A stretch of 64,000 nt of DNA from Escherichia coli (lineage in GTDB: Bacteria > Pseudomonadota > Gammaproteobacteria > Enterobacterales > Enterobacteriaceae): NCBI RefSeq assembly GCF_048403405.1, contig NZ_CP183129.1. One strand, given 5' to 3'. Of this stretch, positions 2,559-24,473 are shown one piece after another. A program made the position numbers and the translations under genes. The notes below the pieces were generated by a model that searched no databases, was not told where the DNA came from, and worked only from the letters and a program-made list of their open reading frames with translations. Positions within the stretch are counted from its first letter, which is position 1, and each line of letters opens with the position of its first letter.

Positions 2559-2565
2559 AAGGTGA

Positions 2566-2583
2566 AGGGATCTGTCGATCCCT
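2566..2583. terminator. hairpin between convergent ydcI and trg (agggatc-tgtc-gatccct)
   Basis: 7-bp perfect stem between the two stop codons; weak T-tract. Confidence 0.4.
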
Positions 2584-2595
2584 CCTTGAACATTT

Positions 2596-4236
2596 TCACA
2601 CTGTAGCGAAACTAACTGGTTCACCCGCTCCGCGAGGTTCTGCCGACACAGAATGTTTGTTCAGACGGAATACGTCCACCGCCTCAGTTAATCGTGCCGC
2701 CTGTTCTTCAAGGGACACCGCCGCCGCTGAGGCCTCTTCTACCAGAGAAGCATTCTGTTGCGTCACCTTATCCATTTCAGAAATCGCCTGGCTAACCTGA
2801 GTTATGCCTCTGCTTTGTTCATCCGAGGCAGCGGCGATTTCCTGCATGATATGTGTGACACTCGCGACGGCATCAACAATAGTGCTCATGGTTTTCCCTG
2901 CCATTGCCACCTCATCCGACCCCAGGTCAATTAACCTGACTGATTCACTGATCAAGCCTTCAATCTCTTTCGTCGCCTGAGCGCTGCGGCTTGCGAGTGT
3001 CCGTACTTCGCTGGCGACAACGGCAAATCCACGCCCTTGCTCACCCGCTCGCGCGGCTTCAACGGCAGCATTCAGTGCCAGAATATTCGTCTGGAAAGCA
3101 ATACTGTTGATGACGGAAGTGATCTCGGAAATTTTCTTCGAACTCGTGGAGATAGCGCCCATCGTTTTTACTACACCGGAAACCGTCTGCCCGCCATCGC
3201 TGGCTTTAATAGAAGCCTCCTGCGCCAGTTTGCTGGCATGATGCGCGTTATCCGCATTCTGTTTCACCGTCGCAGTGAGTTGCTCCATGCTGGCGGCAGT
3301 TTGTTCAATTGCCGCCGCTTGTTCTTCGGTGCGAGATGACAGGTCCGCATTGCCAGAGGAAATTTCGCTGGTGCCACGATAAATCTCTTCCGCGCCCTGT
3401 CGAACGGTCCCTACTGTCATCCCCAGTGAATGCTGCATTTGCTGTAAATGACGACTTAAGCGACCGATTTCATTACGACCTGCCGGATCATCATTCATCG
3501 TCAGATCGCCACTGGCGATTTTTTCAATCCGTTGTGCGGCATGTTGCAGTGGACGAATGACGATCCGACGTAGCACTATAAATGTTATCAGCGTCATGAC
3601 CAGGGCAAGCACAAACGCGCCAATCATGAACATCCCACCCAGGCGGGTGCGCTGATGGGCCAGTTCCGCCAGTTGGTTGGCTCTGGTGCTACGTATCTTA
3701 ACGGCTTTGCTCAAAATATCGGTATAAGCATTATCCAGCGGTCGGATCTGCTCACTTTCATGATTGATAATCGCTTCAAACATGCCATTTTTGGCATATT
3801 TCAACATCGGTTGCATACCCGTGATATAAGCCTGGAAGCGTTGATTTAATTCAGTGTCGAGGGCTTCATCAGCAGGTGTTTTCACCGACCGATTCTGATA
3901 AGCACGATAACCTTGCTGCGACTGTTTAATCTCCGATTCGGCTTGCGCAATATTTCGCTTCATTGCTTCCATTTCAGCAATACGACTCGCAGCACCAGCC
4001 TGAATCATATTGATCCGGGCTGAACGCAAAAAATCTGAACTGTTCGCTAACCCGGTCCGAATCTCAATCTCCGCAGTAACATCACGCTGATCGCGATCGG
4101 CCTGCCAAAGGAAATAGCCGGCCAGGGCTGAACTTAATGCGAATAGAACTAAGATACCGCCAAGAATGCAGGCAAATAACGGAACCAGCCTGATGTGATG
4201 CAAAAAACCTAATCGCTGTGAGGGAGTTGTATTCAT
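2596..4236 (-). CDS. trg: methyl-accepting chemotaxis protein III (ribose/galactose sensor)
   Basis: 546 aa, two TM segments, conserved MCP signalling domain; synteny. Confidence 0.95.
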
Positions 4237-4275
4237 TACCGTTGTCTCTCTTCCAGGTTTACTCCTGATAGAAAG

Positions 4276-4302
4276 TCATCGGCACTTGACGGTAATTTCT
4301 TA
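4276..4302 (-). promoter_or_regulatory. candidate sigma28 (FliA) promoter for trg
   Basis: on the minus strand TAAGAAAT-N11-GCCGATGA, about 40 nt upstream of the trg ATG; -10 matches the GCCGATAA consensus 7/8, -35 only 4/8. Confidence 0.45.
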
Positions 4303-4611
4303 CGACCAAAAACCTCTTTGCGTCACATTTTTACAACAATTATGGCAGAGAAGAATAATGCCATTGGAATGAAGAGAGTAACGAATGATTAAACTGGCTA
4401 AACCGAATGACGAAAAATTCTGGAAAACAGCACGCAATTTCGTGAAGTGATTATTTTCGTCCCTAAGGAAACCTCATAGGATGCCTGCGGGTGCCTGAGA
4501 CTTTCTGTTTTCAGGCTAACCGGGAATCAGAAAGACGAAGGCCCCGACCGATATTTCTATCAACTGTACTGCACCCATTTTGTTGGACGATGAAATGGAA
4601 TAGCCCCTAAT

Positions 4612-5133
4612 ATGTCAAAGCCAAAATACCCTTTTGAAAAGCGCCTTGAAGTCGTGAATCACTACTTCACAACTGATGATGGTTACAGGATCATCTCGGC
4701 ACGTTTTGGTGTCCCCCGAACCCAGGTCAGGACATGGGTTGCCCTCTATGAAAAACATGGAGAAAAAGGTTTAATTCCCAAACCTAAAGGCGTTAGTGCT
4801 GATCCAGAGTTGCGTATTAAGGTCGTGAAAGCTGTGATCGAGCAGCACATGTCCCTTAATCAGGCTGCTGCTCACTTTATGCTTGCTGGTAGTGGTTCTG
4901 TAGCCAGGTGGCTGAAGGTCTATGAAGAGCGCGGAGAAGCTGGTTTACGCGCGCTCAAGATTGGCACCAAAAGAAACATTGCAATATCAGTTGATCCAGA
5001 AAAAGCGGCATCAGCATTGGAGCTGTCAAAAGACCGACGCATTGAGGATCTTGAAAGGCAAGTTCGATTTCTTGAAACGCGGCTTATGTATCTAAAAAAG
5101 CTGAAAGCCTTAGCTCATCCCACGAAAAAGTAA
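4612..5133 (+). CDS. insJ: IS150 OrfA (InsJ), HTH DNA-binding protein
   Basis: 173 aa MSKPKYPFEKRLEVVNHYF..., recognised as IS150 InsJ. Confidence 0.9.
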   Translation: MSKPKYPFEKRLEVVNHYFTTDDGYRIISARFGVPRTQVRTWVALYEKHGEKGLIPKPKGVSADPELRIKVVKAVIEQHMSLNQAAAHFMLAGSGSVARWLKVYEERGEAGLRALKIGTKRNIAISVDPEKAASALELSKDRRIEDLERQVRFLETRLMYLKKLKALAHPTKK

Positions 5134-5981
5134 AAGTACTCAACGAGCTAAGGCAGTTTTATCCTCTTGATGAGCTTCTCAGGGCTGCGGAGATACCGCG
5201 CAGTACGTTTTATTACCATCTAAAGGCTCTCAGCAAGCCTGACAAGTATGCGGACGTTAAAAAGCGTATTGGTGAGATTTATCACGAGAATAGAGGCCGA
5301 TACGGATACCGTAGGGTAACGCTGTCTCTTCATCGAGAAGGGAAACAGATTAACCATAAAGCTGTTCAGCGCCTGATGGGAACCCTCTCACTTAAAGCAG
5401 CGATTAAGGTCAAGCGATACCGCTCTTACAGAGGAGAGGTAGGGCAAACCGCCCCTAATGTTCTCCAAAGAGATTTCAAGGCTACGCGGCCAAACGAGAA
5501 GTGGGTTACCGATGTTACTGAATTTGCAGTCAATGGGCGCAAGCTGTATTTGTCTCCAGTAATAGATCTCTTCAACAACGAAGTTATTTCTTACAGCCTT
5601 TCGGAAAGACCAGTGATGAACATGGTTGAGAATATGCTCGATCAGGCATTCAAAAAGCTTAATCCTCACGAGCATCCTGTTCTGCACTCTGACCAGGGAT
5701 GGCAGTATCGTATGAGAAGATATCAAAATATCCTTAAAGAACATGGTATTAAACAAAGCATGTCCAGAAAAGGCAATTGTCTGGATAATGCTGTGGTGGA
5801 GTGTTTCTTTGGAACCTTAAAGTCGGAGTGTTTTTATCTTGATGAGTTCAGTAATATAAGCGAACTGAAGGATGCTGTTACGGAATATATTGAATACTAC
5901 AACAGCAGAAGAATTAGCCTGAAATTAAAAGGTCTGACTCCAATTGAATATCGGAATCAGACCTATATGCCTCGTGTTTAA
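5094..5981 (+). CDS. insK: IS150 OrfB (InsK) DDE transposase, expressed by -1 frameshift from OrfA
   Basis: orfB frame is open from 5076 with no canonical start before 5376; slippery heptamer A AAA AAG at 5094-5100; catalytic domain in 5376-5981. Confidence 0.85.
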
Positions 5982-6023
5982 CTGTCCAACTTTTTGGGGT
6001 CAGTACACAACCGAGGCCAACGA

Positions 6024-6231
<208 letters not shown>

Positions 6232-6302
6232 GGGCAAGCGCGGGGATTTTCCCCGCGCATCTGACTAGCAGATTCATTTTCTCATGGCACCCCTTTTACA
6301 CT

Positions 6303-6476
6303 TCAGTTAGTGCATGTTTTTTTCGATGCACTAATAGAACCATCATTACAGACAAATTTGCCGCCTGCCGTACAGTGTGAGATCCCCCCTTTCGAACCAG
6401 AACAGGGTTTGCGCCCGGCATCGGCATAAAAGGAAACAAGCGTTCCCATAAACAAGATAAGTGCCAGTTTTTTCAT
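6303..6476 (-). CDS. ydcA: small secreted/lipoprotein-like protein YdcA
   Basis: translated by hand: MKKLALILFMGTLVSFYADAGRKPCSGSKGGISHCTAGGKFVCNDGSISASKKTCTN (57 aa); GGAGG SD. Confidence 0.85.
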   Translation of the reverse strand: MKKLALILFMGTLVSFYADAGRKPCSGSKGGISHCTAGGKFVCNDGSISASKKTCTN

Positions 6477-6720
6477 ATAACCTCCATGGTTTATCGAATC
6501 TTATGTTCGATTTGAACGTTATACGCTGGTTTATTTTGATACCGTTGATGAGATCAAAGATCGGGCGAATTGATTAAAGATAAGCCAGATGGACGTATGG
6601 ATAAGGATTATGGTTTTATTTGTCATACAAATAAATATAATAGGCGCTTCCGATGTAGACCCGTATTCTTCGCCTGTACCACGGGTCGGTTTTAGTACAG
6701 GCGTTTTCTTTAAATATCCT

Positions 6721-7251
6721 TCAGGAACGTTTACGCGGCATCATGCGTAGAAGTGTGTTGTCCTTCCAGAAATAGTGGTGTGCCAGTGCAGCCGCAGCGT
6801 GCAACCCGATGACAAAATATCCCAGATTCGCCAGCATTTCATGCCACGACTTTAAGCTATCAACCCGTTCGAAATTGGCCTCTGATGCATAAGGCATCGT
6901 CAAACCAAACGCAAACCACGGGTTGCCTCGGTTATACATCATCACCAAACCAATCACTGGCAGCGCAATAAACAGGAGATAAATCACCAAATGTCCCAAA
7001 TGCGCCAGTCCCGTCATCATCGGTTTTGGCTTAGGTATAATCGGCGGGGTTGGGTATTTCAGCCTTAACAAAAGACGAACGACCATCAGCACGAGAATTG
7101 ATATGCCACAGGAAACATGAATCATGTTGATGAGTGGCCGATCGCTACGTGGGAAGAAACCCCGAAACTCCATTGCGCAATACGCTGCGATAACCAGCAT
7201 AAAGACCAGCCAGTGAATGCTGATTTGTAACCTTGAGTATTTATTTCCCAT
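6721..7251 (-). CDS. cybB: cytochrome b561
   Basis: 176 aa from MGNKYSRLQ; conserved His ligands in TM helices; start refined from the track ORF. Confidence 0.9.
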   Translation of the reverse strand: MGNKYSRLQISIHWLVFMLVIAAYCAMEFRGFFPRSDRPLINMIHVSCGISILVLMVVRLLLRLKYPTPPIIPKPKPMMTGLAHLGHLVIYLLFIALPVIGLVMMYNRGNPWFAFGLTMPYASEANFERVDSLKSWHEMLANLGYFVIGLHAAAALAHHYFWKDNTLLRMMPRKRS

Positions 7252-7439
7252 AACATTTCCTGCTTTAACATAATTTTCCGTTAACATAACGGGCTTTTCT
7301 TAAAATTTCATTAAATATTGTTCACCCGTTTTCAGTACGTTACGTTTCACGGCAAGAATGTAGATTGCCCATCCCGCCATCGTGGTCTAAGCCTGGAAAG
7401 GATCAATTTTCATCCGAACGTTCCTGACAGGAGAAGACC

Positions 7440-8441
7440 ATGAGTAAAGTTGGTATTAATGGTTTTGGTCGTATCGGTCGACTGGTGTTGCGTCGATTAC
7501 TTGAAGTCAAAAGCAACATAGACATTGTTGCTATTAATGATCTCACTTCCCCAAAAATTCTCGCCTACCTGTTGAAACATGATTCAAACTACGGACCGTT
7601 CCCCTGGAGCGTTGATTTTACGGAAGATTCACTTATCGTTGATGGAAAAAGTATCGCGGTTTACGCCGAAAAAGAGGCTAAAAATATTCCGTGGAAAGCG
7701 AAAGGCGCAGAAATCATTGTCGAATGTACTGGCTTTTATACCTCCGCCGAGAAATCGCAGGCGCATCTTGATGCTGGTGCGAAGAAGGTGTTGATTTCCG
7801 CCCCTGCCGGTGAAATGAAAACCATCGTTTATAACGTCAATGACGACACACTGGATGGCAACGACACCATTGTTTCCGTGGCGTCATGCACCACTAATTG
7901 TCTTGCACCGATGGCCAAAGCCTTGCACGACAGTTTCGGAATAGAAGTCGGCACGATGACGACCATTCATGCCTATACCGGCACTCAGTCACTGGTGGAT
8001 GGCCCGCGTGGTAAAGATCTACGCGCTTCACGTGCAGCGGCAGAAAATATCATTCCCCACACTACGGGGGCGGCAAAAGCCATTGGTCTGGTGATCCCAG
8101 AACTGAGCGGCAAACTGAAAGGTCATGCACAACGCGTACCCGTGAAAACCGGTTCGGTGACTGAACTGGTGTCTATTCTTGGAAAAAAAGTGACTGCCGA
8201 AGAGGTGAACAACGCGCTTAAAAACGCGACAAACAATAACGAGTCATTTGGTTATACCGATGAAGAAATAGTCTCTTCCGATATCATTGGCAGCCATTTC
8301 GGTTCGGTGTTTGATGCCACGCAAACCGAAATTACCGCCGTGGGCGATTTACAACTGGTGAAAACGGTCGCCTGGTACGATAACGAATATGGCTTCGTCA
8401 CGCAGCTTATTCGCACCCTCGAAAAATTCGCTAAACTCTGA
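7440..8441 (+). CDS. gapC: glyceraldehyde-3-phosphate dehydrogenase C (intact)
   Basis: 333 aa, NAD-binding GxGRIGR, active site [10 protein letters not shown]; uninterrupted frame. Confidence 0.9.
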
Positions 8442-8449
8442 CGCGCACA

Positions 8450-8480
8450 GGCGGAGGAAAAAACCTCCGCCTCTTTCACT
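8450..8480. terminator. bidirectional hairpin between gapC and aldA (ggcggagg-aaaaaa-cctccgcc)
   Basis: 8-bp GC-rich stem between convergent stop codons. Confidence 0.55.
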
Positions 8481-8482
8481 CA

Positions 8483-9922
8483 TTAAGACTGTAAATAAAC
8501 CACCTGGGTCTGCAGATATTCATGCAGGCCATGTTTACCATCTGCGCCGCCAATACCGGATTTACGCCATCCGGCGTGGAAGCCTTGCATAGCTTCGAAG
8601 TTTTCACGGTTGATGTAAGTTTCACCAAACTTCAGCCCTTTAATGGCTTTCATCGCGACGTTCAGATTTTGGGTATAGATTGATGAGGTCAGGCCGTAAT
8701 CACTGTCATTCGCCATTGCGATAGCATCTTCCAGCGTGTCAAATGCGACCACCGGCAGAACCGGGCCAAAGGTTTCCTCATGCATAATCGACATTTCCTG
8801 GCGAACATCCAGCAGCAATGTCGGCGGATAATAATATCCTTTCCCCTCTACCGCTTTGCCACCCAACGCCACTCTCGCCCCTTCTTCTACTGCGCGCGCC
8901 ACTTTTTGCTCGACCCTTTCCAGCGCCGCGGCGTTAATCAACGGCCCCATCGCAATGTCGTTGCGTTCTGCGGGGTTACCAAATTGAACCGCCTGCAACG
9001 CTTCACCCAGCCGATTGACGAACTGATCATAAATGCCTTTCTGTACATAAACACGTTCTGCACAGTTACACACTTGCCCACTATTAATGACGCGTGAATC
9101 AACGATGGCTTTGACTGCCAGTTCAAGATCGGCATCGTCCATTACGATAGCTGGTGCTTTACCCCCCAATTCCAGGCACACTTTGGTGATGTTTTTCGCC
9201 GCAGTCGCCATGATCTTTTCACCTGCAGAGACGCTGCCTGTCATACTGACCATTGCGACCTTTGGGTTACCCGCCAGTTCTTGCCCAACGGTTTCACCAC
9301 GCCCCAGAACAAGGTTAAACACGCCGCGCGGAAGGCCTATTTCATCGACGATTTTGGCGAATGCAATCGCATTGTTTGGCGTAAATTCACTGGGTTTAAT
9401 GACAATGGTATTACCAGTCAAAAGAGCGGGAGCCATTTTGCGGGCAATGAGGAAGAACGGGAAGTTCCACGGCAGAATGCCGGTAGTCACACCAAGCGCA
9501 CGTTTAAACAGAAGAATATTTTCTCCTGGACGATCGCTTTGAATAATCTCGCCCTCGTAACGCCGTGCCCACTCCGCCATGTAATCGATATAGTCCGCAG
9601 TAAAAGCCACTTCGACTTCAGCCAGCTGCTGGATCTTGCCCCCTTCTTCAACAATCAGCGCACTGATTTCACTGGCGCGTTCGCGGATCCCGACGGAGAT
9701 TTTGCGCAACCAACTGGCGCGTTCAATAGCAGGCAACGCTTCCCATTCTGGTTGTGCACGTTCTGCTGCATCGATTGCCTTACGGGCATCCTCGGCCTGA
9801 CCATCGGGAATGCGGGAAATGACAGCCTCTGTAGCAGGGTTTACCACATCAATCCATGCGTCTCCACGCCAGGTAACAAACTGTCCATCAATATACATAG
9901 GATGTTGAACGGGTACTGACAT
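8483..9922 (-). CDS. aldA: lactaldehyde dehydrogenase (NAD-dependent aldehyde dehydrogenase A)
   Basis: 479 aa aldehyde dehydrogenase; synteny. Confidence 0.95.
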   Translation of the reverse strand: MSVPVQHPMYIDGQFVTWRGDAWIDVVNPATEAVISRIPDGQAEDARKAIDAAERAQPEWEALPAIERASWLRKISVGIRERASEISALIVEEGGKIQQLAEVEVAFTADYIDYMAEWARRYEGEIIQSDRPGENILLFKRALGVTTGILPWNFPFFLIARKMAPALLTGNTIVIKPSEFTPNNAIAFAKIVDEIGLPRGVFNLVLGRGETVGQELAGNPKVAMVSMTGSVSAGEKIMATAAKNITKVCLELGGKAPAIVMDDADLELAVKAIVDSRVINSGQVCNCAERVYVQKGIYDQFVNRLGEALQAVQFGNPAERNDIAMGPLINAAALERVEQKVARAVEEGARVALGGKAVEGKGYYYPPTLLLDVRQEMSIMHEETFGPVLPVVAFDTLEDAIAMANDSDYGLTSSIYTQNLNVAMKAIKGLKFGETYINRENFEAMQGFHAGWRKSGIGGADGKHGLHEYLQTQVVYLQS

Positions 9923-10118: not shown

Positions 10119-10919
10119 TTAACGTAACGAGCGACTTTCCATCGCCTCGATGAGCACCGCATCGTGTTTCAGCGTTTGCCATGCATGGATGACTTCTGCC
10201 GGAAAATCAACGTGAACGATAAAATCTCGCCCGCGGGGACCGTAGCCATCGCTATCATCGCGTAAACGCGGCAGCTCGCCAGTGAGTAGTGAGAGATAAC
10301 GCTCAACCGGCCATAATCCTTGCAACGGATTAACAAAGATTACACTGTCTGCGTTGTTTCCTAGCTGAGGAACGAATCCGGGATAACTTAACCAGCGAGG
10401 TGCATCTGGATTGTCCCCGGTCATACGGCGGAACGTCGCCATCGTGCGCCGCTGCATGGTGGGGTCCTGAACAACGATAGCCGTATGAACTCGTTCTACG
10501 GCCTGATTCAATAGCGCGATGCTAAAGCGTGCGTTTTCACCGCAGTTTGTTGACTGGTCTTCAATCCAGATTTTTTCATGCGGAATATGCCAGAACTGAT
10601 GAGCGATATCGGCCAGGATGGTGGCTTCTGCTCTGCCAGTGGTGCGGATAGTGTTGTAGTGCGGATGCTGTGCGATAGCGCTATACAAAAAAGTTGTCGA
10701 GTGACCGATACCACCACTAATCAGTAGAGGAATTTGCTGATCGCGGGCAATCTTACATGCCGCATCGATAGTCGGCATAACCGCATTGCCTGCAAGGATC
10801 ACGCAATCGGCCTGATACGGCATCTCACCGGAGAAATCATCCTGCGCCAGCCACTGTCCGATAACATTTATGGCATCTATAGTTGCCGTCGAAAGCGTCG
10901 GAAACGGGGTAATGTTCAT
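10119..10919 (-). CDS. ydcF: DUF218-domain protein YdcF
   Basis: 266 aa matches YdcF. Confidence 0.9.
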
Positions 10920-11034
10920 GGTTCCTCCTTATCGTTCCCTTAAGAATACTGCGTGAGATAATAATGAGAAGCGGAGCACTCTGAAAGGAAGATGATGCTT
11001 TTTCTACCTCGCCATCGCGAACCAGACACTGGTT

Positions 11035-11412
11035 TTAGTCATACTGTATTTGCGGAGAAACTGTTGATAAAACATCAATAACATCATTTGACGTGGCAAT
11101 GACATAATGCTCGATCACATTATTTTTATAAATTTCACAACTTTGCATAGTAAACCATGCAAAGTAGGCGGAATTCACTACTCTATAGATCCCCGTTTGG
11201 TTAATACCGTGAATTCCTGACATTCCTAACAAATCACCTTCGTCAGTAACACGAAATGAATGTATCCAGTCAAATGATAACTTAACTTCTGACTTGATCG
11301 CCGGACATATGAGGGTAAGTTCAAGCCTGGCATTTTTATAGCTTAAATCTGATAGTTCGGCATTTTTAAAAGACAATGAAGTCGGAGTGATATTTATAAA
11401 ACATTCATCCAT
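11035..11412 (-). CDS. hypothetical small protein (islet ORF-A, 125 aa)
   Basis: ATG preceded by AGGGG SD; very AT-rich; no TM segment or recognised motif. Confidence 0.55.
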   Translation of the reverse strand: MDECFINITPTSLSFKNAELSDLSYKNARLELTLICPAIKSEVKLSFDWIHSFRVTDEGDLLGMSGIHGINQTGIYRVVNSAYFAWFTMQSCEIYKNNVIEHYVIATSNDVIDVLSTVSPQIQYD

Positions 11413-11531
11413 GTTAATACCCCTTCATATATGAGACTGCTCTCGATAGACGACACATTAACCTTCTGCAAAAACGGTGCGAGTCTGTTTACGTACCATG
11501 TATAATCGATGGACATTACTGTGATTTGAAA

Positions 11532-11981
11532 TTACCTTGTCCAGTCATCAACCATTTTTTTCAGGGGGAACATCTGCAATACATTCATTAATGCGAAATA
11601 TAATTCCCCCTGTGGCACCAATATTCTAATCTTCTCATCCCCTAAAATGAAAAATTGCAATTGACGTTTGAAACCTAATGTTTTATCTTCAGGTAATTCA
11701 GCTTGTATTTTTTTATTGATATCATCAAGGTAGATGTGATGACAATACTCATCAAACATACTCATTACTTCCAGACCGTTTACAGATGTCCATCTTTGTT
11801 CACTTTCCCAATAAACAAGAACCGGTTTGCGGCAGGTATATCTGCCTAAAAAGCGCTGAATGTGTTCTTCCTGATTCTCGTAAAATATTGCCTCTGCATT
11901 CGAGATTTGCCGACGCATTCGCCAGCGGATTTTTTCTTCATAAAAAGACAATTTGTCGCATTTGGTATTACTCAAATTCAT
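11532..11981 (-). CDS. hypothetical small protein (islet ORF-B, 149 aa from MNLSNTK)
   Basis: ATG at 11981 overlaps the stop of ORF-C by 11 nt (coupling geometry); the track start is a TTG 9 nt upstream. Confidence 0.5.
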   Translation of the reverse strand: MNLSNTKCDKLSFYEEKIRWRMRRQISNAEAIFYENQEEHIQRFLGRYTCRKPVLVYWESEQRWTSVNGLEVMSMFDEYCHHIYLDDINKKIQAELPEDKTLGFKRQLQFFILGDEKIRILVPQGELYFALMNVLQMFPLKKMVDDWTR

Positions 11982-12360
11982 TGTCAACAACTCGCATGGT
12001 TTTAAATATAAAATTTAAAAAACCGCCAAACAAATGAAGTGAAATTTCATACTTCTTTGCCTTATAAACAATTACCGCATCTTTAATATTACCTGCATTT
12101 TGGTTATCTATAAGTTCAGCAATATCCATAACCTGCGATAAATGTTCCACTCCCGTAAACTCGAACCTTTTTCGTTCCCTTCCGGCTGTAAATTCATCAA
12201 CATAAAGTTCTGCCGTCAATATAAAATTATACTCGGTGTGGTGACATTCCATTCTGGTTTCTACTAAAACACCATCATGCCAGATAATATTGTCTAAATT
12301 TTTCATACTATTAATCCAATCCATTACTTTCTGATAAAATTTCCTCTGGAAGTTTTTCAT
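11968..12360 (-). CDS. hypothetical small protein (islet ORF-C, up to 130 aa)
   Basis: open frame with three candidate ATG starts (M1, M13, M19), none with a strong SD; AT-rich. Confidence 0.45.
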   Translation of the reverse strand: MKNFQRKFYQKVMDWINSMKNLDNIIWHDGVLVETRMECHHTEYNFILTAELYVDEFTAGRERKRFEFTGVEHLSQVMDIAELIDNQNAGNIKDAVIVYKAKKYEISLHLFGGFLNFIFKTMRVVDNEFE

Positions 12361-12537
12361 AGAAAGAGATTAAAGCCTGACCGACGCAATCAAGCTCTAT
12401 TATTCGCTCATAATACGATCTCATTAAAATATCATGCTTACTCATTGCAATACGTCCTGTTTACCATGGGCAGAGTATGAATGTAACTTATGTAAAATAG
12501 TACCGCCCTTGCTATTTTTCAGAATTCATAAAGAAAA

Positions 12538-12566
12538 AACCCGGCGCTAAATGCTTACCGGGTTTT
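12538..12566 (-). terminator. rho-independent terminator downstream of hrpA
   Basis: stem AACCCGG/CCGGGTT with 13-nt loop, followed on the minus strand by a run of 6 T; lies 25-50 nt past the hrpA stop. Confidence 0.75.
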
Positions 12567-12590
12567 AGATTTATCAGGCAAATAGCAGTG

Positions 12591-15500
12591 TTAACCGCTA
12601 ATCTGCTCCATCGCCTGCAAAATACGCTTATCTGAAATCGGATAAGGCGTACCAAGTTGTTGAGCGAAGTAACTAACGCGCAACTCTTCTATCATCCAAC
12701 GGATCTCTTTCACGTCTTCATCCTCACGACGTGCGGGCGGCAGTTTGTTGATCCATTGCTGCCACGCCTGCTGGACATTTTCGACTTTCAGCATCTGAGC
12801 ACGGTCGCGATGTGGGTCAACCGCCAGTTTTTCCAGCCGTTTTTCAATCGCCTGCAAATAACGCAGCGTGTCGCCCAACCGTTTGAAGCCGTTACTAGTG
12901 ACAAAACCGCGATATACCAACCCGCCCATCTGCGCTTTAATGTCAGAAAGCCCCAGCGCCATGGTCATATCCACCCGCCCTTTCAGACGTTTATTGATAT
13001 TGAACACCGCAGTAAGGATTTGCTCGACCTGCTTCGCAATATCCACCACCGTGTCGTTCAGTTCAGCGCGGACTTTTTCATGCAGCGCAGCAAAACCTTC
13101 TTCCGTCCAGACCGGGCCACCATTGGCGTCGATCAGTTGATCCACACCGCAGGAGATACAGTCGTCGATCAGCTCCAGCACTTTGCCATACGGGTTAAAG
13201 TACAGCCCCAGCTTGGCTTTGTTTGGCAACTTCTCATGCAAATATTTGATTGGCGAGGGAATATTCAGCAGCAGTAGACGGCGAAGACCGTTCCACATTG
13301 CCTGCTTTTGTTCCAGCGGATTATCAAACAGTTTGATCGCCACGCTGTCGCGTTCATCCACTAGCGCTGGCCACGCCTTCACTTTATAGTTGCCACGCTT
13401 CTGTTCGTAGCTTTCCGGCAGCTGACCAAAACTCCAGATATGTAAGCCGCTCTGCTCGATACCGTCATCCGCCACCGCAGACAGCGTTTCCTGCACTTTG
13501 CCTTTCAGCGCATCTTTCAGATCTTGTAGAGAGCGCCCTTCTTTTAGCTTCTTGTTTTTGTCATCCACCACACGGAAGGTGATTTTCAGGTGATCGGGCA
13601 CCTGATCCCAGTGCCAGTCTTCGCGGTCAACGGTGACGCCAGTCATCCGCCGTAGCTCTCGTTCAAGGCTGTCGAGCAACGGCAATTCCAGCGGTGTGAC
13701 GCGGCCTAAAAAAGCTTCGGCGTAGTTTGGCGCGGGCACAAAATTACGCCGTACCGGTTTCGGCAACGATTTAATCAGAGCAATCACCAGTTCGCGGCGC
13801 AGACCGGGGATCTGCCACTCAAATCCGCTCTCCTCCACCTGGTTAAGTAACGGCAGCGGGATATGTACCGTCACGCCGTCCGCATCCGCCCCTGGCTCAA
13901 ACTGATAACTCAAACGCAGCTTGAGATTGCCCTGATGCCAGAAGTTCGGGTAATCCAGCTTGCTGATCTTTTCCGCCCCTTCTTTGATCAACATGCTCTT
14001 TTCAAAGTTGAGCAAATCAGGCGTTTCGCGGCTGACTTTTTTCCACCAGCTGTCGAAGTGACGTGCGGAGATCACATCGTGGCTGATGCGCTGGTCGTAA
14101 AACTCAAACAGCGTTTCGTCATCCACCAGAATATCGCGGCGACGTGTTTTGTGTTCCAGTTCTTCCACTTCGGCCCGTAGTTTCAGGTTTTCACGGAAGA
14201 ATGCGTGACGCGTCTGCCAGTCACCTTCCACCAGCGCGTGGCGAATAAAGAGTTCACGACATAACGCCGGATCGATCTGGCTGTAGTTGACCTTGCGCGC
14301 GGCAACAATCGGCAAGCCATAAACAGTGACTTTTTCCGTTGCCATCACCGCGCCCTGCGCCCGTTCCCAGTGCGGTTCGCTGTAGATGCGTTTAATCAAA
14401 TGCTGAGCAACTGGCTCCACCCATTCTGGATCGATGCGTGCCGCAATGCGCCCCCACAGGCGGCTGGTTTCTACCAGTTCCGCCACCATTACCCATTTCG
14501 GCGGCTTTTTAAATAAGCCGGAACCGGGGAAAATGGAGAAACGCGCGTTACGTGCGCCGGTATATTCTTGTTTATCGGCATCTTTCATGCCGATATGGGA
14601 AAGCAAACCGGTCAGTAAGGCGATGTGAATTTCGCGATACTCCGCCGGTTCGCTGTTAACCGGAATGCCAAGTTCTTTTACCACCTGGCGCAACTGGGTG
14701 TAGATATCCTGCCATTCGCGCACGCGCAGATAGTTGAGATAATCGGTACGACACAGGCGACGGAAAGCGTTGGAAGAAAGCGCCTTTTGCTGCTCGCCAA
14801 GATAATTCCACAGATTTACAAACGCGAGGAAGTCGGATTCTTTGTCGTGGAAGCGACGATGTTTTTCGTCCGATGCCTGCTGTTTGTCCATCGGTCGTTC
14901 GCGCGGATCCTGGATGGAGAGCGCGGACGTGATAATCATCGCCTCACGCACGCAGCCATGTTTTTGCGCTTCCAGCACCATACGCGCCAGACGAGGATCG
15001 ACAGGCAATTGCGAAAGCTGGCGACCGAGCGGCGTCAGTTTATAGGCGCTGGCCTGTTCATCAGTGGTGATCGCGCCCAGCTCTTCGAGCAGACGCACGC
15101 CATCCTGGATATTACGTTTATCCGGTGCTTCGACAAATGGGAACGCGGCGATATCGCCCAACCCCAGCGCGGTCATCTGTAAAATAACCGAGGCCAGGTT
15201 GGTACGCAGAATCTCCGGATCGGTAAACTCCGGGCGCGAGAGGAAATCGTCTTCGGAATAGAGACGAATACAGATCCCTTCGGACACACGACCACAGCGG
15301 CCTTTACGCTGGTTGGCAGACGCCTGCGAAATGGGCTCAATCGGCAAACGCTGCACTTTGGTGCGATAGCTGTAGCGGCTGATACGCGCCGTACCTGGGT
15401 CGATAACGTATTTAATCCCCGGTACGGTCAGCGACGTTTCCGCGACGTTGGTCGCCAGCACAATGCGCCGTCCACTGTGCGACTGGAACACGCGGTTCTG

Positions 15501-16493
15501 TTCGCTGTTCGAAAGCCGCGCATAAAGCGGCAAGATTTCGGTATGGCGTAAGTTCAGCTTGTTCAGCGCATCGGCGGTATCGCGAATTTCCCGCTCACCG
15601 CTCATAAAGATCAGAATGTCGCCGGGACTTTCCTGGCTCAGTTCGTCTACGGCGTCAAAAATCGCCTGCAACTGATCGCGCTCGGTGTCATCGGCTTCTT
15701 CAACAATCGGGCGATAGCGCACTTCCACCGGATAGGTCCGACCGGAGACTTCGATAATCGGCGCATTATTAAAGTGGCGCGAAAAGCGTTCCGGGTCGAT
15801 AGTCGCGGAAGTGATAATGATTTTTAGGTCAGGACGCCGCGGTAGCAACTCTTTCAAATAGCCGAGCAGAAAATCGATATTCAGGCTGCGTTCGTGCGCT
15901 TCGTCAATAATGATAGTGTCGTACTGCATCAGCAGGCGGTCTTGCTGGATCTCCGCCAGCAGGATACCGTCGGTCATCAGCTTGACCATCGTGTTATCAC
16001 TAACGTGATCACTGAAACGCACTTTGTAACCGATGCAACCGCCCGGCTCCGTTTTCAGCTCTTCCGCAATACGGTTCGCCACCGTTCGTGCCGCCAGGCG
16101 ACGCGGCTGGGTATGGCCGATCAGCCCTTTAATCCCGCGCCCCAGTTCCATACAGATTTTCGGTAGCTGAGTCGTCTTACCGGAACCGGTTTCCCCGGCG
16201 ACGATCACCACCTGGTGATCACGAATCGCTTCGAGAATGTCCTTCTTTTTCTGACTAACTGGCAAATTGTCGGGATAAGTGATTTCCGGTCGTGCCGCTT
16301 CACGCAGCAGGACTTTCCCTGCCGCCTGGTCAATCTCTTTCGCCATCTCCTGGAAAATGGCCTGTTGTGCATCAGGATTTTTAACCTTCTTCACACCGTG
16401 CAGACGGCGTAAAAAACGCTGTCTGTCGCGCAGCATCAGCGAATCCAGCCGCTGCTGCAAGGCTGTAAAGGTCAATTTTTGTTGTTCTGTCAT
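12591..16493 (-). CDS. hrpA: ATP-dependent RNA helicase HrpA (DEAH box)
   Basis: 1300 aa; GETGSGKTTQ and DEAHER motifs. Confidence 0.95.
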   Translation of the reverse strand: MTEQQKLTFTALQQRLDSLMLRDRQRFLRRLHGVKKVKNPDAQQAIFQEMAKEIDQAAGKVLLREAARPEITYPDNLPVSQKKKDILEAIRDHQVVIVAGETGSGKTTQLPKICMELGRGIKGLIGHTQPRRLAARTVANRIAEELKTEPGGCIGYKVRFSDHVSDNTMVKLMTDGILLAEIQQDRLLMQYDTIIIDEAHERSLNIDFLLGYLKELLPRRPDLKIIITSATIDPERFSRHFNNAPIIEVSGRTYPVEVRYRPIVEEADDTERDQLQAIFDAVDELSQESPGDILIFMSGEREIRDTADALNKLNLRHTEILPLYARLSNSEQNRVFQSHSGRRIVLATNVAETSLTVPGIKYVIDPGTARISRYSYRTKVQRLPIEPISQASANQRKGRCGRVSEGICIRLYSEDDFLSRPEFTDPEILRTNLASVILQMTALGLGDIAAFPFVEAPDKRNIQDGVRLLEELGAITTDEQASAYKLTPLGRQLSQLPVDPRLARMVLEAQKHGCVREAMIITSALSIQDPRERPMDKQQASDEKHRRFHDKESDFLAFVNLWNYLGEQQKALSSNAFRRLCRTDYLNYLRVREWQDIYTQLRQVVKELGIPVNSEPAEYREIHIALLTGLLSHIGMKDADKQEYTGARNARFSIFPGSGLFKKPPKWVMVAELVETSRLWGRIAARIDPEWVEPVAQHLIKRIYSEPHWERAQGAVMATEKVTVYGLPIVAARKVNYSQIDPALCRELFIRHALVEGDWQTRHAFFRENLKLRAEVEELEHKTRRRDILVDDETLFEFYDQRISHDVISARHFDSWWKKVSRETPDLLNFEKSMLIKEGAEKISKLDYPNFWHQGNLKLRLSYQFEPGADADGVTVHIPLPLLNQVEESGFEWQIPGLRRELVIALIKSLPKPVRRNFVPAPNYAEAFLGRVTPLELPLLDSLERELRRMTGVTVDREDWHWDQVPDHLKITFRVVDDKNKKLKEGRSLQDLKDALKGKVQETLSAVADDGIEQSGLHIWSFGQLPESYEQKRGNYKVKAWPALVDERDSVAIKLFDNPLEQKQAMWNGLRRLLLLNIPSPIKYLHEKLPNKAKLGLYFNPYGKVLELIDDCISCGVDQLIDANGGPVWTEEGFAALHEKVRAELNDTVVDIAKQVEQILTAVFNINKRLKGRVDMTMALGLSDIKAQMGGLVYRGFVTSNGFKRLGDTLRYLQAIEKRLEKLAVDPHRDRAQMLKVENVQQAWQQWINKLPPARREDEDVKEIRWMIEELRVSYFAQQLGTPYPISDKRILQAMEQISG

Positions 16494-17352: not shown

Positions 17353-20416
<3,064 letters not shown>

Positions 20417-20431
20417 TTTCTCTATTTTCCT

Positions 20432-21328
20432 TCAGTAACAGCAGTAGCGAATAAAATAAAAAAATACCGGAGCGGTGAAAATTAATGAGTCAATCCTGTC
20501 AAGGAGTCCGCCATGTCCTGGTAATAGTTTTCCACTATCTTTAACACCAATATCTCGTTTGATGGCTGACATCACTACATCGCCGCAAAAACCACTAATA
20601 CCAATTAACAAACCCGTTAATAATGCCTGTAATGTATTTACCGGTGTCAGTAACGGTCCAATAATCAGTGACACAATCATGGTAGTGATTACGCCCCCCA
20701 CCAGACCTTCCAGCGTTTTTCCCGGGCTGACTTTGGGGACCACTTTTCTTCTGCCGCAGGATTTCCCCCATAAATACTGTGCAATATCGTTTGACTCGGT
20801 TAATGCCAAAAGAAATAACACCAGTAACGCCTCGCCCTGGATATTTATGGTTGGCAACATTAACAACCAGGCGGCATGACTCAAGGCGAAAACGATCATT
20901 ATCCAGCCCCAAAAAATGGCGCTCACAGTATGCAGAAAACCGGAGGGGTCCCCCACAAAAACTTGCCCGGTGGCTAATATCAGAAACCCAGCCAAAGGTA
21001 TAAATAACAGATACAGCTCAAAGCAATTAAAACCGATAAACAAATAGTTAAGAGGAATACCCCAATATAACCAACGCGGAAAATGTACAGATATAAGCGT
21101 ACAATATTCTTTCAATGCCAGAAAACTTATCAGCGCAAAAAACGTCAACGTCATCCAGCGTGGACCTGAAATCACCATTGAAAAACAAATGACGATGCCC
21201 CACCAGGTACGAATACGTAATGTAACTTCATCCCCTTTTCTCTCCGGTAACCGCCATATCAGAAAACGGTTTATCAGCGTTGCTAAAATTAACAACGCGA
21301 AAAGTGTTGCCAGAGATTTTTCCAGCAT
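20432..21328 (-). CDS. ynbB: CDP-diglyceride synthase-family membrane protein YnbB
   Basis: 298 aa polytopic protein; synteny. Confidence 0.85.
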   Translation of the reverse strand: MLEKSLATLFALLILATLINRFLIWRLPERKGDEVTLRIRTWWGIVICFSMVISGPRWMTLTFFALISFLALKEYCTLISVHFPRWLYWGIPLNYLFIGFNCFELYLLFIPLAGFLILATGQVFVGDPSGFLHTVSAIFWGWIMIVFALSHAAWLLMLPTINIQGEALLVLFLLALTESNDIAQYLWGKSCGRRKVVPKVSPGKTLEGLVGGVITTMIVSLIIGPLLTPVNTLQALLTGLLIGISGFCGDVVMSAIKRDIGVKDSGKLLPGHGGLLDRIDSLIFTAPVFFYFIRYCCY

Positions 21329-21933
21329 TATCTTTCAGCACTCATCAGGAGCACACTCCGACAACGATTAATCGCAGTCCAGATAAGCAGAATTGAAGCA
21401 ATGCCCCATAAAAGATTATTCCATTGCATCCACTGTGGATAAATGGCAACGGCCAGCCCCCACAACCCAAATATTAACGCACGATCGCTTTTGCCGAATG
21501 GACCGGCATAACTGCGAATACCGTTAATCGTCTGCGCGAGTAAACCGCAAAACTCAGTCAATATGGTGCAAAATAACATGAGTATTACGAGTGGTGCGTT
21601 TCTTTCCGGTAAAAATAAAAACGGTAAATAGAGCGCAATATCGGAAATAACATCGCCAGTTTCATTCAAAATCGCCCCCAGACGTGTTTGCTGATTGCAC
21701 TCACGCGCCAACATGCCATCCAGCGCATTGAGCGCCATACGGATAAAAAGTACGATGGGCAATAGCAAAAAGAGGATGGGTTGTGCGACCAACATCAACA
21801 GCAATCCGGTAAAAAGAGAAAGCGCCAGTGCAGTAAGAGTGATGTGATTCGCTGTAACATGGTGCTTATAAAGCCAAAACATCGTCGGTCTTAACAGCGT
21901 CTGAAAGAGCGGTTTTATCTGGTAGAGCGTCAT
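21328..21933 (-). CDS. ynbA: CDP-alcohol phosphatidyltransferase-family protein YnbA
   Basis: 201 aa from MTLYQIK; membrane protein; synteny. Confidence 0.85.
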   Translation of the reverse strand: MTLYQIKPLFQTLLRPTMFWLYKHHVTANHITLTALALSLFTGLLLMLVAQPILFLLLPIVLFIRMALNALDGMLARECNQQTRLGAILNETGDVISDIALYLPFLFLPERNAPLVILMLFCTILTEFCGLLAQTINGIRSYAGPFGKSDRALIFGLWGLAVAIYPQWMQWNNLLWGIASILLIWTAINRCRSVLLMSAER

Positions 21934-22103
21934 TATCAATCCTTGATAATTCTGTTTGCGCTATGGTGCATCAATTGCCCTGACAGAGATATCGCAACAC
22001 GCCGCTTCATTAAAAATTCAGAATATATCAAGGTATTGGGGACTCACCGTCAGGAATGCTTATCCCCAATAAATCAAGTGGTTAAAAATTATCACGCTGT
22101 TAT

Positions 22104-24410: not shown

Positions 24411-24473
24411 ATGCACTCCATGCCATTAAAAAAGAAACAAAAGGGAAATGCATCTTTCCCTTTTGTATATTCG

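What the first reader, a model, noticed from the sequence alone, without database searches (positions are those of the whole stretch)
10920..12590. AT-rich three-gene islet between ydcF and hrpA with no recognisable function
In K-12 as I recall it, hrpA (b1413) and ydcF (b1414) are neighbours about 150 bp apart. Here about 1.67 kb separates them. The insert is strongly AT-rich (sampled 60-nt stretches are about 23-28 percent GC against roughly 50 percent in the flanks), which suggests horizontal acquisition. It carries three co-oriented small ORFs (125, 149 and about 130 aa); the ORF-B start overlaps the ORF-C stop by 11 nt, consistent with translational coupling. None has a signal peptide, TM helix or catalytic motif I can recognise, and there is no integrase, transposase or flanking repeat. 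This pattern fits an orphan immunity-protein cassette, a small toxin-antitoxin-like or defence-associated module, or a regulatory islet, but the function cannot be read from the sequence.
Basis: partly seen in the sequence, partly recalled or inferred. Interest (0 to 1): 0.8.

Follow-up and report, generated by a model that had tools for sequence, protein, structure and literature searches.

The report
Toxin-less immunity-gene islet beside hrpA
The AT-rich insert between hrpA and ydcF is a small array of "orphan" immunity genes, whose relatives elsewhere sit directly behind contact-dependent (CdiA) and type VI (Rhs) toxin genes; it most likely protects this E. coli from toxins injected by neighbouring bacteria, a known kind of locus built here from protein families that have no name yet.

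Summary
A 1,524-bp, 36%-GC segment (window 10993-12516) replaces 128 bp of the K-12 hrpA-ydcF spacer. It carries three intact co-oriented genes: A (125 aa), B (149 aa) and C (112 aa; 130 aa as the longest ORF). It also carries a 35-codon remnant of a fourth gene, D, which is intact in O157:H7. About 11% of complete E. coli genomes have the islet.

Pfam, NCBIfam, PADLOC and PHROGs do not recognise any of the proteins. Remote homologues and their gene neighbourhoods do place them:
- A-family genes lie 7 nt downstream of full-length CdiA toxins that share one toxin domain.
- B-family genes overlap the stop codon of a VgrG-linked Rhs toxin, and one is fused to a CdiI_3 domain.
- C-family genes follow one conserved Rhs C-terminal toxin domain in three taxa.
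- D-family genes lie 16 nt downstream of a full-length Rhs.

Other Enterobacteriaceae carry different mixes of the same families at the same site downstream of hrpA. This is a small heterogeneous polyimmunity (orphan immunity) locus: a new member of a known kind. Protection against incoming toxins is inferred, not shown.

The parts
10993..12516 (.). The islet proper: a 1,524-bp, 36%-GC segment that is absent from K-12, where an unrelated 128 bp occupies the site.
   Evidence: blastn of the K-12 junction (L034) against the window gives homology up to 10992 and again from 12517. GC content. Found in 584-586 of 5,426 complete E. coli genomes.
11035..11412 (-). Gene A, 125 aa: an orphan CdiI-type immunity protein. 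Its family carries the invariant motifs FDWxHSFRVTDEGDLL, WFxxQS and HYxxxTxxDVIDVLS.
11532..11981 (-). Gene B, 149 aa: an orphan RhsI-type immunity protein. Its start overlaps the end of gene C.
   Evidence: Its 41%-identical homologue P0079 in Salmonella enterica subsp. salamae overlaps the stop of a 1,500-aa Rhs ORF that follows Hcp and VgrG (L020), and recurs after the frameshifted orphan copy of that C-terminal toxin domain in L019. A B-like domain is fused behind a CdiI_3 (PF18616) domain in P0206, which is itself encoded downstream of hrpA in L021. No Pfam hit for 43 family members.
11968..12306 (-). Gene C, 112 aa (the longest ORF, 130 aa, runs to 12360): an orphan RhsI-type immunity protein with family motifs WHDG and DNxxAGNI.
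12341..12445 (-). D' : a 35-codon N-terminal remnant of a fourth immunity-type gene, which is intact (141 aa) in O157:H7.
   Evidence: tblastn gives 83% identity to residues 1-35 of L002:2998-3423. RefSeq annotates it as a partial pseudogene. 313 bp present in O157 are missing here. A D-family gene lies 16 nt downstream of a full-length Rhs in L025, with a second copy further along the same array.
12528..12574 (-). The hrpA terminator hairpin. It is shared with K-12 and lies upstream of the islet genes in the direction of transcription.
   Evidence: Inverted repeat I4. It lies within the block that is homologous to K-12.
10119..10919 (-). ydcF, the core-genome flank.
12591..16493 (-). hrpA, the core-genome flank. 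Its downstream side is a recurrent site for immunity-gene arrays in other Enterobacteriaceae.
   Evidence: Related arrays at this site in L017, L021 and L022, whose HrpA proteins are 94-95% identical to this one.

Best explanation
The islet is a small, heterogeneous, toxin-less immunity-gene array (an orphan or 'polyimmunity' locus). Each gene encodes a small cytoplasmic protein from a family whose members are the cognate immunity partners of polymorphic toxins. A pairs with a CdiA C-terminal toxin delivered by contact-dependent inhibition. B, C and the decayed D pair with Rhs C-terminal toxins delivered by type VI secretion.

The proposed mechanism is that each protein binds one incoming toxin domain one-to-one and blocks it. 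A cell that does not make these toxins would then survive attack by neighbours that do.

The array was acquired horizontally into a recombination-prone spacer downstream of hrpA, and it is turning over through deletion, replacement and IS insertion.

What is shown: family membership by sequence, the immunity position of homologues next to toxins, the fold match for A and C, the absence of a toxin at this locus, and strain variability.

What is inferred: that the genes are expressed here, that these 35-48%-diverged alleles still neutralise a toxin, and which toxin variants they neutralise.
For: 1. Gene A. Homologues sit 7 nt after full-length CdiA in two lineages whose toxin domains are 77% identical and whose immunity proteins are 59% identical. 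A further homologue follows a degraded copy of the same toxin domain in a Cedecea orphan cdiA-CT/cdiI array.

2. Gene B. A homologue overlaps the stop of a 1,500-aa Rhs ORF downstream of Hcp and VgrG (L020), and follows the orphan copy of that toxin domain in L019. A B-like domain is also fused to a CdiI_3 domain.

3. Gene C. Three independent pairs of one conserved Rhs C-terminal toxin domain with a C-family gene were found. One of them occurs in about 400 E. coli genomes downstream of VgrG-Rhs.

4. Gene D. A family member lies 16 nt after a full-length Rhs.

6. Co-occurrence. The families travel together in other toxin and immunity arrays. A and B occur together in the Salmonella Rhs array L019. 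At the hrpA-downstream site, C occurs with A (L022), D with C (L017), and a CdiI_3::B fusion with DUF596 (L021).

7. Locus features. The locus meets every descriptive feature that Zhang et al. 2012 (PMC3482391) give for polyimmunity loci: tandem unrelated immunity genes, same orientation, short or overlapping spacers, no toxin, and content that differs between strains. An alternative cassette at the same junction is annotated SMI1/KNR4 (SUKH), a classic immunity superfamily.

8. Conservation. The ORFs are intact in 584 genomes across two lineages about 8% apart, with dN/dS of 0.27 (A), 0.50 (B) and 0.60 (C), against 0.06 for ydcF.
Against: - No experiment shows that any of these proteins binds or neutralises a toxin.
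- No named immunity family (Pfam, NCBIfam) matches A, B, C or D.
- The islet alleles are only 35-48% identical to the homologues seen next to toxins, so their specificity is unknown.
- No close DNA homologue of the toxins cognate to A or B was found in 5,426 E. coli genomes; only a shared linker matched.
- Five of seven C-family loci from distant taxa, and several A-family loci, are lone genes with no toxin nearby. Some A-family genes sit in anti-phage defence islands.
- No convincing sigma-70 promoter was found between the hrpA terminator and the first gene.
- dN/dS is relaxed, one gene is already a remnant, and deletion chimeras exist. The islet could therefore be decaying cargo.
Confidence: 0.75

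Rival explanations
1. Decaying relic. The genes are immunity-family members by descent but no longer do anything in E. coli. They would be neutral cargo left from an ancient toxin locus or a chance transfer, slowly being deleted.
For: - Gene D is reduced to 35 codons in the window.
- A D::A deletion chimera (P0054) exists, and the SMI1-type junction retains only stubs of A and B.
- IS insertions occur in the islet in some strains.
- dN/dS is 0.27-0.60, against 0.06 for ydcF.
- About 85% of E. coli genomes lack the islet.
- No clear promoter was found.
Against: - A, B and C stay full-length without stop codons in 584 genomes from two lineages about 8% diverged. dN/dS below 1 indicates residual purifying selection.
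- The same site in other genera keeps intact arrays of the same families.
- An Rhs toxin domain related to the partner of C circulates in about 400 E. coli genomes, so a selective agent plausibly exists.
Confidence: 0.15
2. An anti-phage defence or toxin-antitoxin-like module. One of the three proteins would be a toxin or effector and the others would regulate it.
For: - The genes are overlapping, small and AT-rich, and sit in a variable spot.
- Lone A-family genes lie next to Gabija-like and BrxC/TerB genes in Pantoea and Citrobacter.
Against: - PADLOC, NCBIfam, Pfam and PHROGs gave no match to any defence or TA component.
- None of the proteins has a nuclease, kinase, NTPase or membrane motif, and none has a TM segment.
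- Each family is found separately in the immunity slot behind a different polymorphic toxin. The three are not found elsewhere as a conserved A-B-C trio.
- Defence islands also collect orphan immunity genes, so co-location with them is not specific evidence.
Confidence: 0.05
3. A regulatory or accessory module tied to hrpA or ydcF function, for example RNA-helicase cofactors.
For: - Small-gene arrays are conserved in position downstream of hrpA in several Enterobacteriaceae.
- There is no strong terminator between gene A and ydcF.
Against: - Content at the site differs completely between strains and genera, while HrpA stays 94-95% identical.
- Most E. coli, including K-12, lack the islet.
- The hrpA terminator separates hrpA from the islet.
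- The families occur in toxin loci unrelated to hrpA.
Confidence: 0.03

Closest known systems
Heterogeneous polyimmunity loci of polymorphic toxin systems (Zhang, de Souza, Anantharaman, Iyer, Aravind 2012, Biol Direct 7:18; PMC3482391)
   Same: Both are tandem, co-oriented, tightly spaced genes from unrelated immunity families. Neither has a toxin gene in the locus, and content differs between strains of one species. The proposed role is pre-emptive protection against toxins from non-kin (for the definition; for this locus).
   Different: This locus is very small: three genes plus a remnant, where 'extended' loci have four or more. There is no adjacent XerC/D-type recombinase. None of the four families belongs to the Imm or SUKH families catalogued there or in Pfam.
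Orphan cdiA-CT/cdiI and rhs-CT/rhsI modules downstream of CDI and Rhs loci (Poole et al. 2011, PLoS Genet 7:e1002217; PMC3150448)
   Same: The protein families are of the same type. Homologues of A, B, C and D are found in exactly such orphan arrays: L007, L015, L019, L025, L028 and L036.
   Different: Those arrays lie next to a full-length cdiA or rhs gene and keep toxin C-terminal fragments between the immunity genes. Here there is no toxin gene and no detectable toxin fragment anywhere in the islet or the 64-kb window.
Acquired interbacterial defence (AID) gene clusters of gut Bacteroidales (Ross et al. 2019; bioRxiv 10.1101/471110)
   Same: Both are arrays of immunity genes without cognate toxins, proposed there to protect against T6SS toxins from other strains and species (abstract seen).
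   Different: From my own knowledge, AID clusters are on mobile elements or are recombinase-associated, and have been validated experimentally. This islet sits between core genes with no recombinase or repeats, and it is untested.
PIM7, immunity protein of the LXG/T7SS DNase toxin PT7 of Bacillus cereus (PDB 8owu; bioRxiv 10.1101/2021.10.19.465003)
   Different: Sequence identity is only 13-15%. Profile comparison finds no relation even between A and C. The partner toxins here (a CdiA C-terminal domain and an Rhs C-terminal domain) show no sequence similarity to any solved structure, PT7 included.

Membership tests
CdiI immunity proteins of contact-dependent inhibition (gene A) | Family members are encoded immediately downstream of a cdiA gene, after its VENN-delimited C-terminal toxin domain. 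| tested here: met
   P0024 and P0033 start 7 nt after CdiA proteins carrying Fil_haemagg_2 and PT-VENN in L004-6 and L012-14. The same toxin domain is present in both (77% identity). A remnant of that toxin domain lies upstream of P0043 in L007.
CdiI immunity proteins of contact-dependent inhibition (gene A) | A cognate cdiA or cdiA-CT gene lies adjacent at this locus. | tested here: not met
   tblastn with the cognate-type CdiA toxin domain finds nothing in the window. The annotation of the 64 kb shows no cdi genes. The gene is therefore an orphan.
CdiI immunity proteins of contact-dependent inhibition (gene A) | The protein binds and neutralises its cognate CdiA toxin domain. | not testable with these tools
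   Needs co-expression or binding assays.
CdiI immunity proteins of contact-dependent inhibition (gene A) | The protein matches a curated CdiI or Imm profile (Pfam or NCBIfam). | tested here: not met
   No Pfam hit even at E<=10. No NCBIfam hit.
RhsI immunity proteins of Rhs/T6SS toxins (genes B, C and the D remnant) | Family members are encoded directly after, or overlapping the stop of, an Rhs protein or an orphan Rhs C-terminal toxin domain (after the PxxxxDPxGL core end). | tested here: met
   B: in L020, the 1,500-aa Rhs ORF at 2560-7062 overlaps the B homologue at 7001-7480. C: L027, L028 and L036. D: in L025, the gene at 1954-2532 lies 16 nt after a 1,405-aa Rhs.
RhsI immunity proteins of Rhs/T6SS toxins (genes B, C and the D remnant) | An rhs gene or Rhs toxin-domain fragment lies adjacent at this locus. 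| tested here: not met
   The spacers are -14, 119 and 34 nt long and hold no toxin-domain fragment. There is no Rhs gene in the 64-kb window.
RhsI immunity proteins of Rhs/T6SS toxins (genes B, C and the D remnant) | The protein neutralises its cognate Rhs toxin domain. | not testable with these tools
   Needs toxicity-rescue assays.
Heterogeneous polyimmunity locus (Zhang et al. 2012) | Tandem genes from structurally or sequence-unrelated immunity families. | tested here: met
   The four families are separated by independent HMMs. hhalign of A against C gives probability 0.2%.
Heterogeneous polyimmunity locus (Zhang et al. 2012) | Same orientation and small intergenic distances, compatible with a single transcript. 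| tested here: met
   All genes are on the minus strand. C and B overlap by 14 nt, B and A are 119 nt apart, and D' and C are 34 nt apart. Transcription itself was not tested.
Heterogeneous polyimmunity locus (Zhang et al. 2012) | No toxin gene or toxin cassette in the locus. | tested here: met
Heterogeneous polyimmunity locus (Zhang et al. 2012) | [quoted passage not shown] | tested here: met
   Junction types seen: empty (K-12 type, the majority), three genes plus remnant (247 genomes), four genes (O157 type, about 337 genomes), and SMI1/KNR4 plus a 99-aa gene (about 190-240 genomes).
Heterogeneous polyimmunity locus (Zhang et al. 2012) | An adjacent recombinase (reported for 'several cases', so not obligatory). 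| tested here: not met
   No integrase or transposase, and no repeats.
Anti-phage defence systems or toxin-antitoxin modules | At least one component matches a known defence or TA protein family, or carries an effector-type domain. | tested here: not met
   PADLOC returned no families at E<=1. NCBIfam, Pfam and PHROGs returned nothing meaningful.
PIM7-like immunity fold | Structural similarity to PIM7 (8owu_E) as the best match in the PDB. | tested here: met

The most novel reading that the evidence does not exclude
The spacer downstream of hrpA is a conserved, recombinase-free 'immunity depot' of Enterobacteriaceae. In this reading, different genera and E. coli lineages (including O157:H7) stock it by homologous recombination with changing sets of immunity genes from at least four uncatalogued families. 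These genes would give real cross-species protection against CDI and T6SS-Rhs toxins that the host itself does not encode. That would be an enterobacterial counterpart of the Bacteroidales AID systems. It would also pair several still-uncharacterised toxin domains with their inhibitors: the ~90-aa CdiA toxin domain ending in KFRYDE, the RHLHWEC Rhs toxin domain with a hydrophobic tail, and the Salmonella Rhs toxin domain.
Probability: 0.35. Interest if true: 0.55.

Novelty: new member of a known kind. Interest (0 to 1): 0.35.

Why it matters
Four sets of RefSeq 'hypothetical proteins', three intact here and the fourth intact in O157:H7, can now be read as orphan immunity genes. They are present in about 11% of complete E. 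coli genomes, including the O157:H7 lineage. That makes them directly testable.

Each family comes with a candidate partner toxin domain that has no name and no known activity. The work therefore defines four new toxin/immunity family pairs for biochemical study.

It also points to the hrpA-ydcF spacer as a recurrent site where Enterobacteriaceae collect immunity genes without any mobile-element machinery. This bears on how resistance to interbacterial weapons spreads in gut communities.

It does not change any concept. Orphan immunity genes and polyimmunity loci are well established.

Tried and rejected
Searches that returned nothing useful:
- Direct family searches on A, B, C and D, and on 43 B-family and 33 C-family members, found nothing: Pfam, NCBIfam, PADLOC and PHROGs.
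- Sequence searches of the PDB with profiles of all four families found nothing.
- The word-indexed homologue search found only Escherichia relatives for B and C. One exhaustive HMMER search with B+C+D concatenated into a single query solved this, giving 125 hits with all three parts represented.
- The search for related loci with C-family alignments failed twice because no stretch was conserved enough. I replaced it with a degenerate DNA pattern for WHDG...[DE]NxxAGNI, which returned 7 loci, all confirmed by HMM.

Attempts to name the partner toxins, all without result:
- Pfam on the CdiA toxin domain.
- NCBIfam on four toxin domains.
- PDB searches with sequences and a profile. Only the shared pre-toxin linker matches the CdiA tRNase structures.

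Other negative results:
- I looked for the toxins cognate to A and B in E. coli by blastn. Only the linker matched.
- I tested whether A and C are homologous. hhalign gave probability 0.2% despite the shared fold.
- Rfam, tRNA, repeat and promoter/terminator scans of the islet gave nothing beyond the hrpA terminator and a promoter-like site upstream of ydcF.
- A plasmid search found no plasmid-borne copy. The hits are chromosomes filed as plasmids, plus one 48-nt match to Duffyella.
- A literature search for the hrpA-ydcF locus found no description of the islet.
Full report
**1. What is there**

hrpA (12591-16493) and ydcF (10119-10919) are both on the minus strand and lie 1,671 bp apart. The window is collinear with E. 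coli CFSAN061763, NZ_CP042899.1.

Aligning the K-12 junction shows that homology runs up to window position 10992 and resumes at 12517. The real difference is therefore a 1,524-bp segment (10993-12516) in place of an unrelated 128 bp in K-12. The K-12 hrpA-ydcF spacer is 271 bp long. The hrpA terminator hairpin (12528-12574) and the 73 bp upstream of ydcF are common to both forms.

The segment is 36% GC, against 49% for the window and 52-54% for the flanking genes.

All the genes are on the minus strand, in this order after hrpA:
- D', a 35-codon remnant (12341-12445)
- C (11968-12306, 112 aa; the longest ORF, 130 aa, reaches 12360)
- B (11532-11981, 149 aa; its ATG lies 11 nt before the stop codon of C)
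- a 119-nt spacer
- A (11035-11412, 125 aa)

There is no tRNA, Rfam family, integrase, transposase or significant flanking repeat. No protein has a TM-like segment.

**2. Distribution in E. coli**

Among 5,426 complete E. coli genomes, 584-586 carry the islet.
- 247 are at least 99% identical to the window.
- About 337 are roughly 91.5% identical. This is the O157:H7 type, in which the fourth gene D is intact at 141 aa (L002).

The window form lacks 313 bp present in the O157 form. That deletion removed most of D and created the spurious N-terminal extension of ORF-C.

A further 190-240 genomes have a different cassette at the same junction. It encodes an SMI1/KNR4-annotated protein and a 99-aa protein on the opposite strand, next to stubs of A and B. 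The remaining genomes have the empty K-12-type junction.

Some strains have IS5 or IS1 insertions in the islet. One database protein, P0054, is a D::A deletion chimera. No copy of the islet genes at about 70% DNA identity or better was listed elsewhere in any E. coli genome. Two genomes have a second matching place that I did not inspect.

**3. No catalogued family matches**

Pfam, NCBIfam, PADLOC and PHROGs give nothing meaningful for A, B, C or D. PDB sequence searches with family profiles also give nothing.

**4. Remote homologues and their neighbourhoods**

*Gene A.* It has homologues of 43-48% identity in Duffyella, Pantoea, Erwinia, Cedecea and Citrobacter. They share strongly conserved motifs.
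- In Duffyella (L004-6) and in a second lineage (L012-14), the homologue starts 7 nt after a CdiA protein carrying Fil_haemagg_2 and PT-VENN.
- The last ~90 residues of those two CdiA proteins are 77% identical, and the immunity proteins are 59% identical.
- In a Cedecea neteri array of orphan cdiA-CT/cdiI modules, the homologue is preceded by a frameshifted remnant of the same toxin domain.
- Another homologue lies beside a CdiI_3 gene.
- Others are lone genes in variable or defence islands.

*Genes B, C and D.* The word-indexed search saw only Escherichia relatives for B and C. I therefore concatenated B, C and the O157 version of D into one query for the single exhaustive HMMER search available. 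All three parts gave remote homologues, 125 hits in total.

*Gene B.* P0079 of Salmonella enterica subsp. salamae is 41% identical.
- In L020 it overlaps the stop of a 1,500-aa Rhs ORF that directly follows Hcp and VgrG.
- In L019 it follows the frameshifted orphan copy of the same toxin domain, in an Rhs array that also contains an A-family gene.
- In P0206, a B-like domain is fused behind a Pfam CdiI_3 domain.

*Gene D.* In L025, a D-family gene begins 16 nt after a 1,405-aa Rhs. A second copy lies further along the array.

*Gene C.* A degenerate DNA pattern for its two motifs found seven loci in GTDB genomes, all confirmed by HMM.
- In Citrobacter youngae (L028) and an uncultured gammaproteobacterium (L027), the C homologue overlaps the end of an Rhs C-terminal domain that begins at the DPxGL core boundary. 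The two toxin domains are homologous to each other (GxWKDCGxGCRIRID...GRHLHWEC).
- The Citrobacter module has a 72%-identical DNA counterpart in about 400 E. coli genomes. In strain cq9 it lies downstream of VgrG, Rhs and an immunity-position gene. There it forms an orphan toxin-domain pseudogene followed by an intact 114-aa C-family gene that is 35% identical to islet C.
- The other five C-family loci, from distant phyla, are lone genes.

**5. Structure**

AlphaFold models built on the family alignments are confident: A has pLDDT 85 and C has pLDDT 92.6.

A and C are not detectably related in sequence; hhalign gives a probability of 0.2%.

**6. The site is a recurrent depot**

In three other Enterobacteriaceae, HrpA is 94-95% identical to this one. 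In each, the position directly downstream of hrpA holds a different array:
- D-like, C-like and a 217-aa gene (L017)
- DUF596, a CdiI_3::B-like fusion, LprI and a 142-aa gene, followed by an MFS gene and then ydcF (L021)
- C-like, LprI, A-like and a 141-aa gene (L022)

The shared families are only 37-44% identical to the E. coli genes. Content therefore turns over far faster than the flanks. No toxin gene is present at any of these sites.

**7. Interpretation**

Every gene of the islet belongs to a family whose members occupy the immunity slot behind a CdiA or Rhs toxin. The locus itself has no toxin.

The array matches the description of heterogeneous polyimmunity loci in Zhang et al. 2012: tandem unrelated immunity genes, same orientation, tight spacing, no toxin, and strain-variable content. 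It lacks only the sometimes-present recombinase.

The most likely function is neutralisation, by one-to-one binding, of toxin domains delivered by competitors through CDI or T6SS.

That is an inference. Expression, binding and specificity are untested. The alleles here are 35-48% diverged from the homologues seen beside toxins. Selection is relaxed relative to core genes (dN/dS 0.27-0.60 against 0.06 for ydcF). One gene is already a stub. No convincing promoter was detected upstream of the first gene.

The main rival is that the islet is a decaying relic. Anti-phage, TA and hrpA-related regulatory roles have essentially no support.

**8. Novelty and verdict**

I found no paper describing this locus. 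The concept of orphan immunity genes and polyimmunity loci is well known. The four families and at least three partner toxin domains are uncatalogued: no Pfam, NCBIfam or PDB match.

This is a new member of a known kind. It is useful for annotation and as a source of new toxin/immunity pairs, but it would not surprise a specialist.

Noticed in passing
window 7440-8441 (+) and 18481-24972 (-): gap (gapC-type GAPDH, 333 aa) and the 6.5-kb BigA/YdbA autotransporter gene are both intact in this strain. From memory, both are pseudogenes in K-12.
   Followed up: no
L006:7368-7994, L012:4587-5993, L020:6400-7062: The same pre-toxin linker (NPNVGKDLTDEEKxELGGxGSGxPxGWGPxDEE) precedes the toxin domain in two CdiA proteins and in a Salmonella Rhs protein. 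It matches residues ~90-150 of the solved CdiA tRNase toxin-domain structures 5j43 and 5j5v. One entry or linker module appears to be shared between T5SS and T6SS toxins.
   Followed up: partly
L036:6893-7839; L028:2495-3309; L027:1832-2702: An uncharacterised Rhs C-terminal toxin family (GKWKDCGKGCRIRIDGD..GRHLHWEC) ends in a hydrophobic, TM-like tail. It has no Pfam, NCBIfam or PDB match. An orphan copy with an upstream internal stop, plus a C-family immunity gene, sits next to ISAs1 (ydcC) in about 400 of 5,426 E. coli genomes.
   Followed up: partly
L009:8001-11340; L011:270-6390; L010:3835-14416: Lone A-family genes lie beside Gabija-like gene pairs (an AAA_15/AAA_21 ATPase, with an OLD-type TOPRIM domain in L009, plus a UvrD helicase) and beside BrxC/TerB-type genes in Pantoea and Citrobacter. 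Orphan immunity genes and anti-phage systems therefore share the same variable islands.
   Followed up: no
L004-L006 ~8434-8766; L012 9347-9706; L013 2104-2463; L015 1114-1317: SymE_toxin-family genes recur on the opposite strand at the edges of cdi loci and orphan arrays.
   Followed up: no
L021:7001-7714: A 237-aa protein fuses a CdiI_3 domain to a B-family domain, making it a two-domain 'polyimmunity protein'. It is encoded downstream of hrpA in an unnamed Enterobacteriaceae genome. DUF596 and LprI-family genes sit in the same array.
   Followed up: partly
L003:1736-2800 (E. coli AHB6) and protein P0054: The same junction has alternative states. One is an SMI1/KNR4 gene plus a 99-aa gene on the opposite strand, flanked by stubs of A and B. 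Another is a chimeric ORF joining the N-terminus of D to the C-terminus of A. IS5 or IS1 insertions occur in the islet in a few strains.
   Followed up: partly
window 6082-6231 (+): The hokB type I toxin gene lies about 5 kb from the islet. It is an ordinary K-12 feature.
   Followed up: no
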